A stretch of DNA of 64,000 nt from Bacillota bacterium (GCA_021769295.1 JAETTD010000011.1:134-64133); one strand, 5' to 3'; shown: positions 6,483 through 64,000, counted from the stretch's first letter. The notes: a model not told the origin generated them from the letters alone. Program-made: numbers and translations.

Positions 6483-7217
6483 ATGAAGAAACAATACAGA
6501 CACGAAAGATGCATTAACACCTATGAAGGTGACCACAATAAAATAGTAAGGGCATCCGGATTGCTGCAAGAGATGCAGGAGGCCGGAAGACTTCAGATGA
6601 AAGTTCAAAAACCGTCATATGAAGACTTGCAAAATGAGGGAAAAACCTTGATGCTCAGCCGATTGGATATGGAGGTATACGAGCCGGTATATGTAGGCGA
6701 AACAATAACGGTATCTTCATGGCCGTGCGAGAGCAGCAGAGCCACGTTCCTGCGTTGTTACGATATACAAAAGGATGGACGTGTACTGGCTGAAATTGCA
6801 AGCCAGTGGGCCCTTGTAGACATGGAAAGCAGAAAGGTTCTGAAGACAGACGAAGTGGATTTTTCCAATTATTATGTGGGAGAATACAAGGAACTGTACA
6901 GGGGAAAGCTTAGAATACCTAAAGATGAATCCTTTGAAGAGGTTGAAAAGTATAAGGTAAGATATTCCGATTTGGATTCCAACGGCCATATGAACAACAC
7001 CTATTATCTCGACGTACTGAGCAACCACATTCCTGAGCTGGCTGCAGGCGGGTATATGGTCAAATCCGTCAGGGTGCATTACAGCAAGGAAGCTCCTTAT
7101 GGGGATGTGATTACCGTATTCAGAGCAAAGCCTGACGAAAGCAGATATATATTCAAGACAGTCAAGGAAAGCGGAGAGCTGAACTTGGAAGCCGAGATAG
7201 TTATAAAGGCTGTTTAG
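6483..7217 (+). CDS. Acyl-ACP thioesterase
   Basis: I start at ATG 6483 (GAGAGGGGAAAG RBS) rather than the ORF-track 6420, which overlaps the previous gene. Double hot-dog architecture with RYSDLDSNGHMNNTYYLD. Confidence 0.78.
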   Translation: MKKQYRHERCINTYEGDHNKIVRASGLLQEMQEAGRLQMKVQKPSYEDLQNEGKTLMLSRLDMEVYEPVYVGETITVSSWPCESSRATFLRCYDIQKDGRVLAEIASQWALVDMESRKVLKTDEVDFSNYYVGEYKELYRGKLRIPKDESFEEVEKYKVRYSDLDSNGHMNNTYYLDVLSNHIPELAAGGYMVKSVRVHYSKEAPYGDVITVFRAKPDESRYIFKTVKESGELNLEAEIVIKAV

Positions 7218-7246
7218 GAGATGAATTTAATTCAGAGCCAAAAACA

Positions 7247-7480
7247 AGACTGCCGTAAATCTTAAATTTTCTTTGAATTGCGGCATTTTGACCGCAGTGA
7301 TAAGGCTCAAATTGCCGTAAAGTTCTCAATTTCTTTTAAATACGGCATTTTATAAGCCGTAGGAAGGGTGAAACTGCCGTAAATTTGAAATTTTTCTTAG
7401 TTTCCGGCATTTTGGCGGGAAATAAGGTAGCAAAAGTGCCGCAAATGGGAGATTTCCTTAAATTTGCGGCACTTTACAAT
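7247..7480 (+). repeat. Array of four hairpin units phased at 62 nt (TGCCG...CGGCA family)
   Basis: TGCCG at 7251, 7313, 7375 and 7437. CGGCA at 7281, 7343, 7405 and 7467. The period is exactly 62 nt and the arm offset is exactly 30 nt. Spacers carry ATAAGG. Confidence 0.9.
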
Positions 7481-7525
7481 TCAGACGATTGCGGTGGCAC
7501 CATTTCTGAAAATGTACGATTCTTA

Positions 7526-10429
7526 CTATTCTATGGATTTTAACGACTCTGCCATGCTTATTTTATTGAGTTTGCGCCTCATTACAAGGTTGACAATCAT
7601 CGCAAAGACGAAAGTTCCCAGAACTCCCAGAACATAGCTGAGAAGGGTAATGTGGACATCAAAGCTGAGCAAGTCGATTTTGATTTTTTCCATTACGAAT
7701 CTGTGGAGCCAGCAGCCCAGAGGCAGCCCCACAAGGGCTGAAATTGCCGTCAGAGTGATGTTTTCCCTGAATACGTACTGAGCAGTCTCATTCTGATAAA
7801 AGCCGAGAACCTTGATAGTAGCGATTTCTCTGATACGTTCGGTTATGTTTATATTGGTCAGATTATATAGGACTATGAACGCCAAGGCTCCGGCACACAG
7901 AACTACCAGCGCGATTACATAGTCAAGGCTTTTCATCATGTTGGTGATGCGGGCCTTGAAATCTTCCGTAACAGATACGGAGGAAACACTTTCGGCATCC
8001 ATTAAAGCGGCGCCGATTTCGTGGCGGGAAAGCTCTGCGTCATCTTCCCCGGCTGCCTGTGTACCGAGAATAAAGGCAGTGTTTATTTCGGGAGCGCCCC
8101 AAGCCGAGCGGTAGGTAGCGTCATTTATGTACAGATAGTTATATACGTAATTGTCGCATAAGCCGGTTATTTTTACGGTGAGAGCATTCTGTTCGCTGTC
8201 ATAAACCGTGAGGCTGTCTCCCTTCTTTACTCCGAGAGTATGGGCAAGATTGCTGTTTATAATTCCCTCGCCTTCGCCCGGATATTCAAGCCGGCCGTCG
8301 TCGTTATGAAGGTCGATGAATTTGTCTATAGGATTATCGTCGTCGCAGACTATTAGGTTTACGGATTTTACCTGCCCGCCGGTTCTTGCATCTACTGAGC
8401 CCGAGTATATAAAGAGGCATTGCTCTATGTATTCTTTGTTTTCCTCTGCAAAGGCAGACTGATCCTCCGGCGTAAGGCCGTGGTTAAAGAGAACTTCGTA
8501 ATCCACATGGTATATCTCATCATATTGCATGGACACCACATTTTTAATTGAGTCCCTGATACCCAGACCTGTTATCAAAAGGGCGGTACATCCGCATATG
8601 CCCAGTATCATCATGAAAAATCTTTTCTTGTATCTGAATACGTTTCTGACGGAGACCTTCTGCAGGAATTTCAGGCGATTCCACACAAAGGGAATTTTTT
8701 CAAGGAAAATCCGCTTGCCTGCCGAAGGGGATTTTGGCCTGATAAGCTGGGCAGGAACTTGGGAAAGTTCGTGATAGCAAGCGTACAATGTGGTTCCGAC
8801 AGAGCATATGAGGGCTGCAAGAAGAGCAAAACCGCCCAGAAGCCAGTCAAAGACAAATATAACTTCTGAAAAACCGTACATCATCTTGTACGCCTCCCAG
8901 ATTACCCATGTAAATATATATGTGCCTGCAAAGAATCCGCCGACTCCACCGATGAGAGCGGAACTTGCCGAATAAAATATATATTTGCTCAGTATTTGGT
9001 TCCTGCTGTATCCGAGAGCCTTTAAGACTCCTATCTGGGTACGTTGTTCTTCAATCATGCGGCTCATGGTGGTCATGCATACCAAGGCTGCTACCAAAAA
9101 GAAGAATATAGGAAAAACTTTGGCAATTCCCTCAACTATACCGGTATCGTTATCAAAGCACACATATCCCACATTGGTCTGTCTGTCCAAAACATAATTG
9201 TCAGGATATTCGATGGCGTTTATATCTTTTTTTGCATCTGTCAGCTTTTTTTCGGCATCTGATATCTTTGCCCTGCCGTCCGCAAGCTCTGATTTTGCAT
9301 CGGCTATTTGAGCCATACCGCTGTTTATTTCGGATTGCTTTAAATCAAGCTGCGCCTTTGATTCTTCGAGAGTTTTCCATGCGCTGTCAAACTGCAGGTC
9401 AAGGGCTGATTTTTGGAATAAATATTCTTCCTCCGTAATGGCTCCGGAGCTGTAATATAATTGGAGCTGTCCGTATGCCGCATCTTTTTCTTTCTCATAT
9501 TGCGAAAGGCCGGAGTTGTATTCTGCCAAACCCTCATCCAAAAGCTGTTGACCACGTTTAAGGTCGGACTCGTTGACCGAGATTTCAGACTGAGCTTTTT
9601 GAAGCTGAGCTTTTTTGTCTGCCAGTTCCGATTCTGCATCCGACACCTTTGCATAAGCTTCGTCCACGATTGCATCGTAACGCCTTTGAGCACAGCTTTC
9701 CAATGCGTTTTCAAGAGGTTCTTTGGCATCCTCCGATATTGACTTGTATTGGTCGCTGAAGATAAATGCTTCCTTATCCAGTTTTACGTAAATTTCCGTA
9801 AAAACATCTGAACTGAAACCAGATTGGGGAATCAGCACAAAGGAAGATATGCTTCCGTCTCCTATGGAAGATGAGCCTCTTTCGAAGTTGAGGTACAGGG
9901 GCGAATCAGCCAGACCGGTTAATGTATAGGAATCATAGGTCAGCATATCAAGGGTGTCTTCCTTGTTGGTTGAATCTATTAAGATTTCTTTGCCTATGTC
10001 TTCTTTGGTAAAATACCTGGAATCTCCGAGACACTCATTTCCCCTCTGAGGCATTTTGCCTGCCACAAGATTGGGGGTGTTGATTTTTTCGGAGATTGCC
10101 ATAAACTTTGAAACCACGGCTCCCGCATCATCATCCTTTATGGTTATCAACACATCGGAGGAATAGGAACCTTCGGCAGTCTTTACTCCGTCTGTCGAAT
10201 TTACGGTTTCCACATCGCAATCCTCAAGCCCCAGAGTTGAAATCAGCCGATAGTCATAAAAATTATGTTTATGCAGATATGTATTGCCGGTTTCAAGAAA
10301 TGCCGACTTGCAAACTTTAAGGCCCGAAAAAAAACCCACTCCAAGAGCGACTATGGCAAGAATCGCAAACCACCGGCCAAAGCTTTGACGGATTTCTCTT
10401 ATGGTAGATTTAAACATAACACCTTTCAT
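7526..10429 (-). CDS. ABC transporter permease with duplicated FtsX/MacB-type domains and a large coiled-coil extracytoplasmic domain
   Basis: 967 aa. TM1 is followed by an extracytoplasmic region of about 390 aa with heptad-like segments (AESELADKKAQLQKAQSEI..., AKSELADGRAKISDAEKKLTDAKKDI). Two 4-TM FtsX modules follow. The gene sits 18 nt downstream of its ATPase. Confidence 0.88.
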   Translation of the reverse strand: MKGVMFKSTIREIRQSFGRWFAILAIVALGVGFFSGLKVCKSAFLETGNTYLHKHNFYDYRLISTLGLEDCDVETVNSTDGVKTAEGSYSSDVLITIKDDDAGAVVSKFMAISEKINTPNLVAGKMPQRGNECLGDSRYFTKEDIGKEILIDSTNKEDTLDMLTYDSYTLTGLADSPLYLNFERGSSSIGDGSISSFVLIPQSGFSSDVFTEIYVKLDKEAFIFSDQYKSISEDAKEPLENALESCAQRRYDAIVDEAYAKVSDAESELADKKAQLQKAQSEISVNESDLKRGQQLLDEGLAEYNSGLSQYEKEKDAAYGQLQLYYSSGAITEEEYLFQKSALDLQFDSAWKTLEESKAQLDLKQSEINSGMAQIADAKSELADGRAKISDAEKKLTDAKKDINAIEYPDNYVLDRQTNVGYVCFDNDTGIVEGIAKVFPIFFFLVAALVCMTTMSRMIEEQRTQIGVLKALGYSRNQILSKYIFYSASSALIGGVGGFFAGTYIFTWVIWEAYKMMYGFSEVIFVFDWLLGGFALLAALICSVGTTLYACYHELSQVPAQLIRPKSPSAGKRIFLEKIPFVWNRLKFLQKVSVRNVFRYKKRFFMMILGICGCTALLITGLGIRDSIKNVVSMQYDEIYHVDYEVLFNHGLTPEDQSAFAEENKEYIEQCLFIYSGSVDARTGGQVKSVNLIVCDDDNPIDKFIDLHNDDGRLEYPGEGEGIINSNLAHTLGVKKGDSLTVYDSEQNALTVKITGLCDNYVYNYLYINDATYRSAWGAPEINTAFILGTQAAGEDDAELSRHEIGAALMDAESVSSVSVTEDFKARITNMMKSLDYVIALVVLCAGALAFIVLYNLTNINITERIREIATIKVLGFYQNETAQYVFRENITLTAISALVGLPLGCWLHRFVMEKIKIDLLSFDVHITLLSYVLGVLGTFVFAMIVNLVMRRKLNKISMAESLKSIE

Positions 10430-51015: not shown

Positions 51016-51056
51016 TACCGCAAATAAGAATGCTTTGATGAACTACGGCATTTTTA
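51016..51056 (+). repeat. Single degenerate plus-oriented unit of the 62-nt hairpin family
   Basis: TACCGCAAAT...30-nt offset...TACGGCATTTTT followed by AAGGC. Same geometry as the units at 7247-7480. Confidence 0.6.
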
Positions 51057-51132: not shown

Positions 51133-51360
51133 CAAATGCCGCGTTTAAAGAAAAATCCGGCATTTCCGGCAGTTTTGACCCTTATCGACCGGCGAAAATG
51201 CCGCAATTAAAAACTTTTTCTTCGTTTCCGGCAGTTTAACCCGTCTTGAAGCCTTAAAAATGCCGTAACTGAAAGAATCTTCGGGATTTGCGGCAGTCCG
51301 ACCGTCCTTTAAGAGGTCAAAATGCCGTAACCGAGAGATTTTTTGAAATTTCCGGCAGTC
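51133..51360 (-). repeat. Array of four hairpin units phased at 62 nt, inverted relative to 7247-7480
   Basis: TGCCG at 51137, 51199, 51261 and 51323. CGGCA at 51167, 51229, 51291 and 51353. Units read AAAATGCCG...CGGCAGT, the reverse complement of the array at 7.2 kb. Confidence 0.9.
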
Positions 51361-51564
51361 GAGGCGATATCGGGACTATGTTGAGGCGATGTTGAAGCAG
51401 TGTGGACTATATCGAGACAGTGTGAGACTATGTTGAGGTGATGCCGAGTCAATAAAGAGCCTTGTGGGTGGCAGCAGTGTGATGCCGAGTCAACGTTGAG
51501 TCGCCCAAAAGGCCTGCCGCTTATAGTCGAGGCCTGTTGTACCTAATAGAAGGACGTGCCGTTG

Positions 51565-51640
51565 CCGGCCGAGGTTTGCTGAGACGCACCAATAGCCCCA
51601 CCGGCCGGGGTTTACTGAGACGCACCAATAGCCCCACCGG
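51565..51640. repeat. Tandem 36-nt direct repeat (2.1 copies) running into a 14-bp hairpin
   Basis: CCGGCCGAGGTTTGCTGAGACGCACCAATAGCCCCA (51565-51600) and CCGGCCGGGGTTTACTGAGACGCACCAATAGCCCCA (51601-51636) have 2 mismatches. The hairpin TAGCCCCACCGGCG / CGCCGGCGGGGCTA spans 51629-51660. Confidence 0.88.
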
Positions 51641-51679
51641 CGCCAGCGCCGGCGGGGCTATTTGATTCATAGACACCGG

Positions 51680-51709
51680 TAAAAAGACCTGCCGTCACCG
51701 GCAGGTCTT
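51680..51709 (-). terminator. Rho-independent terminator of the symporter gene
   Basis: AAGACCTGCCG (51684-51694) / CGGCAGGTCTT (51699-51709) with a 4-nt loop. A-tract at 51681-51685, which is a T-tract on the minus strand. Confidence 0.85.
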
Positions 51710-51727: not shown

Positions 51728-53260
51728 TTATTTTCCCAGAGCGGTTTTCTGAGCCACGCTGGTCGGTTTTTCGTAGCAGGCGAAAGTTTCTTCAACAAGC
51801 GCTGCATCCGGCTTCTTTGTTATCAGGCTTACCACAGGAACGATTACAAGTCCTGCAAGCATGGCTATGGAACCGCAGTTGATAGGGGAGCGCATTATCT
51901 CCGGAAGAACGGAAGGCGCCAGCATGTCCACTATCATGAGCACGGTGCCGAAAATGAAGGAAGCCCAGCACGCTCCGGCCGTCGTCTTTTTCCAATAGAG
52001 GGAATACAGGAACGGAGCCAGGAAAGCGCCTGCCAGCGCACCCCAGGATATGCCCATGAGCTGTGCGATAAATGTAATGGAACTCTTGTATTGAACAAGG
52101 GCAATTATAGCGGAGATTGCAATGAATACCACTATAAAGAAGCGTATCGTCAGGAGCTGTGACTTTTCTTTCATGTCCTTTACGATATTGTCCTTGATAA
52201 AGTCAATGGTAAGGGTTGAGCTTGAAGCGATTACCAGTGATGACAAGGTGGACATTGAAGCCGACAGAACCAGTATTACGACCAGAGCTATGAGGGCAGG
52301 GGAAAGGTTTTGCAGCATGGTGGGAATGATAGAATCATATCCGTTGGCTGCAACATCTACCTGATCGGAGAACAGTCTGCCGAAACCTCCAAGAAAATAG
52401 CAGCCTCCTGCAACCACAAGTGCGAACAATGTGGAAATTATAGTTCCTTTCTTTATAGAGGACTCGTCCTTAATGGCATAAAACTTCTGAACCATCTGAG
52501 GCAGACCCCATGTTCCAAGGGATGTGAGAATTACCACAAATAGCAGGTTCAGCGGATCAGGTCCAAAGAACGAAGCAAATATTCCCGGTGTTTCGGAAAC
52601 CGTTTCGTCGCTTATCTGAGCGAGGCCGGAAAGGGCCTCCATGAAGCCGCCTTTGCTCATCAAAACCGCCGCGATGATTGTTACGATACCGAACAGCATG
52701 ATGATTCCCTGTATGAAATCATTTATGGCGGTGGCCATATATCCGCCTGCGATAACGTAAATTGCAGTTAAAACAGCCATAAGCACGATGCATACCGAGT
52801 AATCGATGTTGAAAGCCATTCCGAACAGCCTGGAAAGACCGTTATATAGCGAGGCCGTGTAAGGAATCAGAAATACGAAAATAATGGCAGAAGCAACGAT
52901 TTTCAGCGGCTTGCTCTGAAACCTTTTGCCGAAAAACTGAGGCATGGTGGCAGAATCCAAGTGCTGCGTCATTATACGGGTTCTTCTGCCCAGAATAACC
53001 CATGCCAAAAGGGAACCTATGATAGCATTTCCTATGCCAGCCCACGTTGCCGCAATACCGTATTTCCAGCCGAACTGGCCTGCATATCCGACGAAAACCA
53101 CAGCCGAAAAATAGGATGTGCCGTAGGCGAAAGCCGTGAGCCAGGGACCTACGCTGCGGCCGCCCAGTACGAAACCGTTTACGTCGGTGGCATGTTTTCG
53201 GCAGTAAAGACCGATACCGACAAGTACGGCAAAATATATGACTAAAATAAGAATTTTCAT
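51728..53260 (-). CDS. Sodium:solute symporter (SSF family); substrate not assignable
   Basis: 510 aa and about 13 TM. The N-terminal VLGGRSVGPWLTAFAYGTSYFSAVVFVGYAG is typical of PutP/PanF-like SSF proteins. Confidence 0.88.
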   Translation of the reverse strand: MKILILVIYFAVLVGIGLYCRKHATDVNGFVLGGRSVGPWLTAFAYGTSYFSAVVFVGYAGQFGWKYGIAATWAGIGNAIIGSLLAWVILGRRTRIMTQHLDSATMPQFFGKRFQSKPLKIVASAIIFVFLIPYTASLYNGLSRLFGMAFNIDYSVCIVLMAVLTAIYVIAGGYMATAINDFIQGIIMLFGIVTIIAAVLMSKGGFMEALSGLAQISDETVSETPGIFASFFGPDPLNLLFVVILTSLGTWGLPQMVQKFYAIKDESSIKKGTIISTLFALVVAGGCYFLGGFGRLFSDQVDVAANGYDSIIPTMLQNLSPALIALVVILVLSASMSTLSSLVIASSSTLTIDFIKDNIVKDMKEKSQLLTIRFFIVVFIAISAIIALVQYKSSITFIAQLMGISWGALAGAFLAPFLYSLYWKKTTAGACWASFIFGTVLMIVDMLAPSVLPEIMRSPINCGSIAMLAGLVIVPVVSLITKKPDAALVEETFACYEKPTSVAQKTALGK

Positions 53261-63983: not shown

Positions 63984-64000
63984 AAAGTGCCGCAGATTTA
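63984..64000 (+). repeat. Start of another plus-oriented unit of the 62-nt hairpin family, truncated by the window edge
   Basis: AAAGTGCCGCAGATTTA matches the left arm of unit 4 at 7433 (AAAAGTGCCGCAAATGGG). Confidence 0.5.

What the first reader, a model, noticed from the sequence alone, without database searches (positions are those of the whole stretch)
7247..7480. Four exactly phased 62-nt hairpin units in a convergent spacer (TGCCG/CGGCA family)
TGCCG occurs at 7251, 7313, 7375 and 7437. Its complement CGGCA occurs at 7281, 7343, 7405 and 7467. The period is 62 nt every time and the arm offset is always 30 nt.

Each unit reads aa(C/T)TGCCG(T/C)AAA, then an A/T-rich variable loop of about 17-20 nt, then TT(G/A/C)CGGCA(T/C)TTT. 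A ~22-nt spacer containing ATAAGG follows. Stems are 7-12 bp, and unit 4 (AGTGCCGCAAAT / ATTTGCGGCACT) is a perfect 12 bp.

The arms and phasing are conserved while loops and spacers drift, so constraint acts on the pairing or arm sequence rather than on coding. The loops are too large and the T-tracts too short for classical intrinsic terminators. The imperfect repeats argue against CRISPR.

The same family recurs inverted at 51133-51360, as a single unit at 51016, and at the window end. It behaves like a REP/BIME- or BOX-like element, but I do not recognise it as a described family.
Basis: seen in the sequence. Interest (0 to 1): 0.62.

Follow-up and report, generated by a model that had tools for sequence, protein, structure and literature searches.

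The report
Mobile four-hairpin 62-nt intergenic repeat cassette
The four phased hairpins are one copy of an undescribed non-coding repeat (four 62-base units) found about 94 times between genes in this bacterium; in a closely related strain the same site instead holds an ordinary terminator, so this is REP/BOX-like mobile "junk-or-useful" DNA, not a gene switch.

Summary
Window 7247-7475 holds four TGCCG-N25-CGGCA units, each spaced exactly 62 nt from the next.

**Abundance.** The genome (2.26 Mb) has about 370 such units in 94 arrays. Of these, 72 span exactly four units, and 221 of 241 unit spacings are exactly 62 nt.

**Location.** The arrays are non-coding and concentrated at gene 3' ends. 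They occupy about 22% of convergent spacers, 3.6% of tandem spacers and about 1% of divergent spacers. They show no orientation bias.

**What is conserved.** The 12-nt inverted arms (AAAcTGCCGyAA) are conserved as sequence. A covariation test shows no compensatory changes. Loops and spacers drift at roughly the neutral rate.

**Evidence of gain and change.**
- A sister lineage about 93% identical in the flanking genes has an empty site here, holding a plain bidirectional terminator.
- At the window's second array, that lineage has three units instead of four, differing by an exact 62-nt indel.
- More distant relatives are empty at both loci.

**What was not found.** There is no match in 40 related genomes, 185,579 species representatives, JGI metagenomes, Rfam, plasmids or phages. 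There is no Y1/RAYT or TnpB gene, no general terminal inverted repeats and no target duplication.

**Verdict.** This is a lineage-restricted, mobile, BOX/BIME-like modular repeat. What mobilises it is unknown, and it may double as a terminator. Two other repeat families in this genome share the 62-nt unit length.

The parts
6483..7217 (+). Upstream flanking gene: acyl-ACP thioesterase, 244 aa as called in public assemblies. Its stop codon lies about 30 nt before the cassette.
   Evidence: The ORF is listed. One search gives the 244-aa product with Pfam PF01643/PF20791.
7245..7506 (+). Inserted repeat cassette: about 5 nt of left edge (AAGAC), four 62-nt units, and a conserved 35-nt tail. In a sister lineage this stretch is occupied by an ordinary terminator.
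   Evidence: BLAST homology to the sister-lineage contigs L082-L084 stops at window 7243/7244. For L082, which spans the site, it resumes at 7526. The family-A consensus covers this span.
7247..7289 (+). Unit 1 hairpin. Arms are 7247-7258 (AGACTGCCGTAA) and 7278-7289 (TTGCGGCATTTT), around an A/T-rich loop.
7309..7351 (+). Unit 2 hairpin (TGCCG at 7313, CGGCA at 7343).
7371..7413 (+). Unit 3 hairpin (TGCCG at 7375, CGGCA at 7405). It has a T:C mismatch next to the core.
7433..7475 (+). Unit 4 hairpin with a perfect 12-bp stem. Read on the minus strand it is hairpin plus UUUU, the most terminator-like unit, and it faces the FtsX gene.
7472..7506 (+). Conserved right tail CTTTACAATTCAGACGATTGCGGTGGCACCATTTC, shared by most family-A copies. 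Its second half resembles the start of a unit of the second 62-nt family.
7526..10429 (-). Convergent flanking gene: 967-aa FtsX/MacB-type permease.
   Evidence: The ORF is. assign Pfam PF02687 to the orthologue.
51133..51360 (-). Second four-unit array of the same family, in opposite orientation and strongly diverged in loops and spacers. The sister lineage has three units here.
51016..51056 (+). Solitary degenerate unit (left core TACCG) beside the second array. It is conserved in the sister lineage.
63988..64000 (-). Start of a third array (family A, minus orientation). It continues for three units beyond the window on contig C45.

Best explanation
The four hairpins are one copy of a lineage-restricted, non-coding, interspersed modular repeat. 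It is a cassette of four direct 62-nt units.

**Unit structure.** Each unit consists of:
- a pair of 12-nt inverted arms (AAAcTGCCGyAA ... TTrCGGCAtTTT);
- an A/T-rich segment of about 15-19 nt between the arms;
- a G+C-richer spacer of about 20 nt.

**Shown here.**
- The cassette has been gained as a block of about 260 nt at gene 3' ends. At this locus it took the place of the native bidirectional terminator.
- It changes copy number by whole units.
- It evolves fast outside the arms, while the arms, the 25-nt arm separation and the 62-nt phase are kept.

**Inferred.**
- The arms are a sequence-specific recognition site for an unidentified trans-acting protein. This could be the activity that copies or moves the cassette, or a host DNA-binding factor. 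The arms do not look like a generic RNA stem.
- Because each unit is a hairpin followed by a T-run on either strand, the cassette is tolerated where terminators sit. It probably serves as a weak, tandem, bidirectional terminator or 3'-end protector for the two convergent genes that lost their own terminator.
For: **Copy number and regularity**
- The genome has 373 pattern hits and 94 arrays of at least two units. Of these, 72 span exactly four units, and 221 of 241 spacings are exactly 62 nt.
- Lag 62 is the only outstanding self-similarity lag in the genome.

**Family structure**
- About 45-50 arrays are of the window's type. The 38 full-length ones average 80% identity with no indels.
- A further 27 four-unit arrays are below 65% alike, yet they keep the cores, the spacing and the unit number.
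- These diverged arrays show weak but significant positional homology (0 of 300 permutations reach it).

**Location**
- Contexts are 44 convergent, 39 tandem (21 co-oriented with the array, 18 opposite) and 2 divergent.
- About 43 of 193 convergent spacers carry an array, against 36 of about 1000 tandem spacers (counts).

**Sequence rather than pairing is conserved**
- 78.6% of cells pair, against 31-51% when the partner is slid.
- The covariation score is 0.085 against a shuffle mean of 0.092, and 415 of 500 shuffles are at least as high.
- There is no Y:R covariation among the independent arrays.
- Degenerate units have one-arm mutations only.

**Gain and loss**
- Two other samples carry the same junction (L071, L072).
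- A sister lineage, 92.9% and 91.5% identical in the flanks, has an 85-nt spacer holding the terminator AAAAGTCCCGATTTTAATCGGGACTTTTT instead of the array (L082).
- An 84%-aa relative and genome G006 are also empty at this site.

**Unit-number change and fast drift**
- At the second locus the sister lineage has three units, differing by an exact 62-nt indel.
- Unit identities there are 0.71, 0.87 and 0.73, against 93-94% in the flanking genes.
- An 89%-aa relative has only two terminators at that locus.

**Terminator substitution**
- No canonical terminator remains in 7218-7525.
- The array folds far better than shuffled sequence on both strands (z = -6.2 and -3.9).
- Only 13 of 86 gene ends facing an array keep a terminator-like hairpin before it, against 76 of 300 at array-free convergent junctions.
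Against: - No mobilising enzyme was identified. Y1/RAYT (PF01797) and TnpB (PF07282) are absent.
- The IS110 and rve transposase contigs show no TGCCG arms at their ends.
- No recurrent neighbouring gene was found.
- No target-site duplication is visible at the one clean filled/empty pair.
- Terminal inverted hairpin modules flank only about 5-7 family-A copies and none of the diverged arrays.
- Cores, spacing and unit number persist in arrays whose other positions are near saturation. A purely selfish, decaying element would not be expected to do this, so host-level selection is possible.
- The simple terminator scan does not call the units terminators, since their loops exceed 8 nt.
- The genome is a 61-contig draft. 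Multi-copy transposase genes could have been lost from it.
Confidence: 0.72

Rival explanations
1. Domesticated protein-binding platform. The eight arm half-sites lie alternately 30 and 32 bp apart, about three helical turns, and so all sit on one face of the DNA. Under this reading they form a phased docking array for a host DNA-binding or DNA-wrapping protein, for example a nucleoid-associated protein or an insulator of convergent transcription. The arrays would then be kept by host selection rather than by mobility.
For: - The arm sequence is conserved without covariation.
- The 25-nt arm gap, the 62-nt phase and the unit number of four are rigidly kept, even in arrays below 65% alike.
- Orientation is independent of flanking genes.
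- A/T-rich loops alternate with G+C-richer spacers.
- Two other repeat families in this genome also have 62-nt units built on palindromes.
Against: - No candidate protein was found, and no solitary operator-like arm sits upstream of a gene.
- The arrays are absent from all same-genus genomes tested and from sister species that share the flanking genes. Any such function is therefore dispensable and very young.
- Presence/absence and unit-number polymorphism fits selfish spread at least as well.
Confidence: 0.12
2. RNA-level element. The arrays would be selected mainly as transcribed tandem hairpins in 3' UTRs, acting as tandem intrinsic terminators or as barriers to 3' exonucleases, as shown for some REP and BOX elements. 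Alternatively they could be processed into small RNAs.
For: - Arrays sit directly behind stop codons. 85% of facing gene ends have no canonical terminator before the array.
- At this locus the native terminator is gone.
- Each unit is a hairpin followed by TTTT or GTTT on either strand.
- Folding z-scores are strong.
Against: - No compensatory stem changes are seen.
- Wobble pairs (G:T versus A:C) show no consistent strand preference.
- Loops of 15-19 nt and 8-12-bp A/T-rich stems are poor terminators.
- A five-base core that is invariant in about 93% of units is more than a stem would need.
- No Rfam family matched, and no expression data could be obtained.
Confidence: 0.1
3. Degenerate or atypical CRISPR-like array. 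The period of 62 would be a roughly 35-nt palindromic repeat plus a roughly 27-nt spacer.
For: The geometry resembles a repeat-spacer unit, and the arrays are short and dispersed.
Against: - Units within an array are only about 58% alike.
- The 'spacers' are conserved at about 80% between copies at about 45-50 different loci.
- The period is rigid rather than varying by 1-2 nt.
- The number of units is fixed at four.
- No phage or plasmid match was found for the array.
Confidence: 0.01
4. Local tandem duplication, or a chance palindrome cluster of no wider significance.
For: None beyond the tandem arrangement itself.
Against: - There are 94 arrays on 30-odd contigs.
- The shuffle expectation is 0.54 matches per window against 10 observed.
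Confidence: 0.01

Closest known systems
Pneumococcal BOX elements (boxA-(boxB)n-boxC)
   Same: Both are non-coding modular intergenic repeats of about 100 copies per roughly 2-Mb Firmicute genome. Both have an internal module repeated in direct tandem and optional end modules that can pair. Both are hairpin-forming, have no transposase of their own, and are lineage-restricted.
   Different: Here the internal unit is 62 nt and itself a palindrome, rather than the 45-nt boxB. The unit number is almost fixed at four instead of variable. End modules are present in only a minority of copies. Sequence relatedness to BOX was not tested, because no BOX model was available.
REP / BIME / REPIN elements of Proteobacteria, mobilised by RAYT (Y1 transposases)
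   Same: Both are extragenic palindromes of about 35 nt in hundreds of copies. Both cluster at gene 3' ends and between convergent genes and combine with other motifs into mosaics. Some known ones act as terminators or mRNA stabilisers.
   Different: Units here are in direct tandem at a rigid 62-nt phase, not in alternating orientation or inverted doublets. There is no GTAG/CTAC head. The loops are long (15-19 nt). No Y1/RAYT gene is present in the genome.
MITEs with internal repeats (e.g. Correia/CREE, RUP, ERIC; 'Chunjie' of Geobacter, recalled from memory)
   Same: Both are small non-autonomous blocks gained at intergenic sites, with many diverged copies. There is presence/absence polymorphism between close lineages.
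   Different: There are no general terminal inverted repeats, no target-site duplication at the filled/empty pair, and no partner IS with matching ends.
Other lineage-specific hairpin repeat families noted by this scan in Anaerovoracaceae genomes (unchecked AI notes e1-2018985, e1-1975785)
   Same: Both are tandem hairpin units of about 60-107 nt, lodged beside terminators or promoters, undescribed, and varying between strains.
   Different: They have different core sequences and unit lengths. Relatedness to the present family was not tested, and those notes are only leads.

Membership tests
REP/REPIN-RAYT system | A Y1 (IS200/IS605-like, PF01797) RAYT transposase gene in the same genome | tested here: not met
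   There are 0 matches in the 97%-complete assembly, while the control genomes give hits. Caveat: this is a draft MAG.
REP/REPIN-RAYT system | A short imperfect palindrome with a conserved GTAG/CTAC head, occurring singly or as inverted doublets | tested here: not met
   The arms read AAAcTGCCGyAA with no GTAG head. Units are direct tandem repeats at 62 nt.
REP/BIME (general class) | High-copy extragenic palindromes enriched at gene 3' ends and combined with other motifs in mosaics | tested here: met
   There are 94 arrays. About 22% of convergent spacers are occupied, against about 1% of divergent ones. Mosaics with G-rich, hairpin and second-family modules are seen.
BOX-type modular repeat | Distinct end modules flanking a variable number of tandem internal modules | tested here: inconclusive
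   End hairpin modules sit next to 27 of the 30 places where they occur, but both ends are present in only about 5-7 arrays. The internal unit number is mostly four, with a 3-versus-4 difference between lineages.
MITE | Terminal inverted repeats, a target-site duplication and a related autonomous IS | tested here: not met
   The diverged arrays have no flank inverted repeats. No duplication is seen at the filled/empty junctions. The long self-repeats are ICE genes, and the IS110/rve contigs lack TGCCG arms.
CRISPR array | Near-identical repeats separated by unique spacers of slightly variable length | tested here: not met
   Units are about 58% alike within an array. The 'spacers' are conserved between loci, and the period is fixed at 62.
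Intrinsic (Rho-independent) terminator | A G+C-rich stem, a loop of 3-8 nt and a following U-tract | tested here: inconclusive
   The consensus scan finds none in 6900-7800. The units have a 5-bp GC core inside an 8-12-bp stem, a 15-19-nt loop and TTTT. Unit 4 on the minus strand comes closest. Function was not measured.
Any Rfam RNA family | A match to a curated covariance model | tested here: not met
   Nothing reaches gathering threshold in the array. Only two chance-level miRNA hits appear at E of about 0.25-0.3.
Integron attC site | R''/R' boxes (RYYYAAC ... GTTRRRY) around an imperfect palindrome, bounding gene cassettes | tested here: not met
   By inspection of the unit consensus these boxes are absent. 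The units are contiguous with no cassettes between them. The attC consensus was recalled from memory.

The most novel reading that the evidence does not exclude
The rigid 62-nt unit is not an accident of one family. At least three repeat families with apparently unrelated core sequences occur in this one genome, and two of them are also absent from the 40 related genomes searched. They are the TGCCG-N25-CGGCA family, the CGTGAATTCACG family and the GTATAC-box family. All are built as a palindrome of about 35 nt plus a spacer of about 27 nt.

This would imply a single, still unknown, length-measuring machinery that generates, copies or reads such units. It could be a hairpin- or palindrome-specific recombination or copying system unrelated to Y1/RAYT transposases. 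Alternatively it could be a DNA-wrapping protein that selects for six-turn phasing. Either would amount to a new class of bacterial repeat system.
Probability: 0.12. Interest if true: 0.75.

Novelty: new variant of a known kind. Interest (0 to 1): 0.45.

Why it matters
Interspersed hairpin repeats (REP, BIME, BOX) are well studied in Proteobacteria and streptococci. They are barely described in anaerobic gut Clostridia.

This family makes up about 1% of a small genome. Its architecture is unusually strict: four units, a 62-nt phase, and invariant five-base cores in about 93% of units. It lacks the known REP mobilising enzyme.

There is also a clean natural experiment. In one lineage a terminator between two convergent genes has been replaced by the cassette. 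This makes two questions directly testable: whether such repeats can take over terminator function, and which protein reads the arms.

On the practical side, these arrays break short-read assemblies. At least nine contig ends of this MAG lie in them. Their unit-number and presence/absence polymorphism could serve as a strain marker.

Tried and rejected
**Known families and databases**
- Rfam gave nothing at gathering or lenient thresholds.
- blastn of the array against plasmids and phages gave no match.
- A literature search found no described family of this kind in Clostridia.

**Distribution searches**
- An exact two-unit pattern was run over 40 relatives, 185,579 species representatives and 241 million metagenome records.
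- The 40 relatives gave no match at all. The two collection scans gave only single chance matches in high-GC DNA.
- The collection scans may leave out records of the window's own genome or near-identical ones. The family does exist in other samples of this and a sister lineage.

**Other readings**
- The CRISPR reading was rejected because the 'spacers' are conserved across loci.
- RNA-structure covariation was tested and not found.

**Search for a partner gene or element**
- Y1/RAYT and TnpB searches were negative.
- The IS110 and rve contigs were inspected and are unrelated to the arms.
- A self-BLAST for a partner element found only conjugative-element genes on small contigs.
- Recurrent neighbour genes: none.
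- Solitary arms acting as an operator: none convincing.

**Relatives**
- An autocorrelation scan of 400 kb from two same-genus genomes found no lag-62 arrays.

**Dead ends**
- One orthologous locus in G006 was unreadable because it was masked with N.
- The first exact-protein look-up failed because my ORF start was too far upstream.

Full report
**1. The observation**

The pattern TGCCG-N(20-30)-CGGCA matches at 7251, 7313, 7375 and 7437, always with a 25-nt gap and always 62 nt apart. It matches again at 51137, 51199, 51261 and 51323. The window has ten matches against 0.54 expected from dinucleotide-preserving shuffles.

Aligned without gaps, the four units share 23 invariant columns. These are concentrated in two inverted arms and a short central A/T block. 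Tandem Repeats Finder misses the array because whole units are too diverged. The region has no ORF. It fills the convergent spacer between a gene ending at 7217 and one ending at 7526.

**2. Genome-wide picture**

The window is C45:134-64133 of a 61-contig, 2.26-Mb, 43% G+C assembly.

- The genome has 373 pattern hits.
- They form 94 arrays of at least two units. Of these, 72 span exactly four units.
- Of 241 neighbour spacings, 221 are exactly 62 nt. Most of the rest are about 124 nt, where one unit has a mutated core.
- Orientation on the contigs is even, 46 plus and 48 minus.
- An unbiased autocorrelation scan shows lag 62 as the only outstanding self-similarity lag in the genome.
- At least nine contig ends lie in arrays, so the true number is higher.
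- The arrays amount to about 1% of the genome.

**3. Anatomy**

The unit consensus is aaAcTGCCGTAAAt - A/T-rich segment of about 15 nt - AaTTaCGGCATTtT, followed by a G+C-richer spacer of about 20 nt. It is the same in the abundant subfamily and in the diverged arrays.

The 65 intact four-unit arrays align position by position. Units 1-4 are distinguishable, so the four-unit cassette, not the single unit, is what has been copied.

- About 45-50 arrays belong to the window's subfamily ('family A'). Its 38 full-length members average 80% identity, ranging from 68% to 90%, without indels.
- A further 27 four-unit arrays are less than 65% alike to anything else.
- Even these keep weak positional homology. 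Identity is 0.45 on the diagonal against 0.42 off it, and no permutation out of 300 reaches that difference.

Family-A copies often carry extra modules:
- a G-rich GGCGA-type stretch on the left;
- the tail CTTTACAATTCAGACGGTTGCGGCGACACCATTTC on the right;
- in a minority, outward-facing terminator-like hairpins (CCGACTTTTCAGTCGGCTGTGCGACAGCC plus a T-run) in inverted arrangement at both ends. This hairpin occurs 30 times, 27 of them beside family-A arrays, but both ends are present in only about 5-7 arrays. The diverged arrays have none.

The window's copy has the right tail but neither the left module nor the end hairpins.

**4. Sequence or structure?**

The inverted repeat is real. 78.6% of cells pair, against 31-51% when the 3' partner is slid. 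There is no covariation, however. The score is 0.085 against 0.092 in shuffles, and 415 of 500 shuffles are at least as high.

In the more independent arrays, the Y:R position beside the core does not covary (TA 65, TG 38, CA 15, CG 13). Units with a damaged core always carry a one-arm change, never a compensated pair. G:T versus A:C counts show no consistent strand preference.

About 93% of units keep all ten core bases while other positions are 20-55% diverged. I read this as conservation of the arm as a sequence, most simply a protein recognition site, rather than as a generic RNA stem. This is an inference.

The array does fold much better than shuffles on both strands (z = -6.2 and -3.9), as any palindrome array must.

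**5. Where the arrays sit**

These figures use crude ORF calls.

- 44 arrays lie between convergent genes.
- 39 lie between co-directional genes: 21 co-oriented with the genes and 18 opposite.
- 2 lie between divergent genes.

In proportion, about 22% of convergent spacers carry an array, against about 3.6% of tandem spacers (counts). So the arrays avoid promoters and ignore transcription direction.

Flanking genes are ordinary and unrelated to one another. Only 13 of 86 gene ends facing an array have a terminator-like hairpin before it, against 76 of 300 at array-free convergent junctions. This difference is modest, and the scan is strict.

**6. Distribution**

The two-unit pattern occurs 221 times in this genome. 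It does not occur at all in 40 relatives, including 17 species of the same genus. A scan of 185,579 species representatives and of the JGI metagenome contigs gave only single chance matches in high-GC DNA. Those collection scans may omit records of the window's own or near-identical genomes.

Four hundred kilobases from two same-genus genomes contain no lag-62 array of any sequence. There is no Rfam, plasmid or phage match.

**7. Close relatives: direct evidence of gain and change**

*The assigned locus.*
- The upstream gene is an acyl-ACP thioesterase. Two other samples carry the identical gene and junction. Their contigs break inside unit 1, as expected at a repeat.
- A sister lineage is 92.9% and 91.5% identical in the flanking 6 kb and 4.5 kb. 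It has only an 85-nt spacer containing a plain bidirectional terminator, AAAAGTCCCGATTTTAATCGGGACTTTTT (L082).
- Homology to the window stops at 7243/7244 and resumes at the FtsX stop codon at 7526.
- So about 260 nt (7245-7506) stand where the terminator was. No target duplication is visible.
- Two further samples of that lineage keep the terminator but have a different insertion behind it. That insertion resembles sequences found near contig ends in this genome.
- An 84%-aa relative (56-nt spacer) and genome G006 (65-nt spacer with a terminator) are also empty.

*The window's second array.*
- The same sister lineage, 93-94% identical in the flanks, has three units followed in phase by the solitary inverted unit.
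- The window's third unit is missing as an exact 62-nt indel.
- The shared units are only 71%, 87% and 73% identical.
- An 89%-aa relative has two ordinary terminators and no array there.

These comparisons show block-wise gain, unit-wise copy change, and roughly neutral drift outside the arms.

**8. What moves it?**

I could not find out.
- There is no Y1/RAYT gene and no TnpB.
- IS110-type and rve-type transposases sit on small contigs, but their ends show no TGCCG arms. One IS3-like end abuts a unit at the start of contig C28.
- Long self-repeats are conjugative-element genes.
- The assembly is a draft, so a multi-copy partner could be missing.

**9. Mechanism, with its status**

*Shown:* this is a dispersed four-unit cassette. 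It is gained and lost between close lineages, placed at gene 3' ends, and conserved in arm sequence and geometry.

*Inferred:* the arms are read by a protein. The cassette is tolerated, and perhaps useful, at terminator positions, because every unit is a hairpin followed by a T-run on either strand. At this locus it is the only candidate terminator for two convergent genes.

*Rivals:* a domesticated phased protein-binding platform, and a primarily RNA-level role. Neither can be excluded without binding or transcript data.

**10. Comparison with known systems**

It works like BOX and REP/BIME elements, but it is not a member of the REP-RAYT, MITE, CRISPR, attC or any Rfam family on the defining features tested.

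Its distinguishing traits are the palindromic 62-nt unit, the nearly fixed number of four units, and the rigid phase.

Two further families in this genome also use 62-nt units. One has the core CGTGAATTCACG. That shared unit length is the most intriguing unexplained point.

The taxonomic label Anaerovoracaceae comes from an earlier unchecked note. I did not verify it.

**11. Verdict**

This is a real and abundant repeat of an undescribed family: a new variant of a known kind of element. It is of moderate interest, mainly for its strict geometry, the missing mobilising enzyme, and the natural terminator-replacement experiment.

Noticed in passing
genome contigs, e.g. C6:120253-120500, C11:175-680, C32:53463-53660; in several family-A copies directly downstream of the TGCCG array: A second tandem repeat family also has exactly 62-nt units, usually about three per array and eight or more at the start of C11. 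It is built on the palindrome (TTT)CGTGAATTCACG(AAA) plus AACGTT. The pattern occurs 21 times in this genome and 0 times in 40 relatives.
   Followed up: partly
window 51380-51700 (beside the second array): Other repeat modules fill the 766-nt convergent spacer: a 36-nt tandem repeat (51565-51641, 2.1 copies, 95% identical), GACTATGTTGAGG-type motifs and a 21-nt CAAGATTCA-type repeat. All of them are absent from the sister lineage's 408-nt spacer (L076).
   Followed up: partly
30 places in the genome, e.g. C28:20620 and C28:20952; C51:43912 and C51:44279: A terminator-like hairpin module, CCGACTTTTCAGTCGGCTGTGCGACAGCC plus a T-run, occurs almost only next to family-A arrays (27 of 30). It lies inverted at the two ends and faces outward. 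A few full-length copies therefore look like elements of about 430 bp with terminal inverted repeats, often next to TATATA-rich flanks.
   Followed up: partly
L083/L084 (sister lineage, orthologous to window ~7250); own genome C43:9555, C47:61875, C20:164952: In two samples of the sister lineage, the site that is empty in L082 carries a different insertion starting CCATGCCAAATGTTGG.... Similar CCATGTCAAATGTTGG(C/G) sequences lie near contig ends in this genome, so this is probably the end of an IS-like element. The convergent spacer appears to be an insertion hot spot.
   Followed up: no
contig C28:1-121 and C60:1-30: The end of an IS3-like element (TAATGTGGTCCCCATTTAACGGACTC, next to an rve transposase on C60) directly abuts a TGCCG unit at the start of C28. 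This suggests an IS inserted into or beside an array.
   Followed up: no
contigs C2, C10, C18 (2.7-4.2 kb) and C14/C36: Several diverged copies (81-91% identical) of conjugative-element genes sit on small contigs that carry no arrays. They include a VirB6-like membrane protein, a lytic transglycosylase/NlpC-P60 protein, a large serine recombinase and a PemK-like toxin. They may reflect several ICEs or strain mixture in the bin.
   Followed up: no
L075 (JGI sample 3300010163), downstream of the symporter orthologue of window 51728-53260: An assembly with an essentially identical symporter diverges from the window inside the gene's terminator hairpin (after GACCTGCCG) and continues into unrelated sequence. 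It also has a different upstream neighbourhood that includes an IS3-type transposase. This looks like a rearrangement breakpoint at the terminator.
   Followed up: no
window 51650-51700 (minus strand: GACCTGCCGGTGACGGCAGGTC): The native terminator of the symporter gene contains the same TGCCG/CGGCA core as the repeat arms. The same is true in the sister lineage. This may be coincidence, or a hint about how the arms arose or what they target.
   Followed up: no
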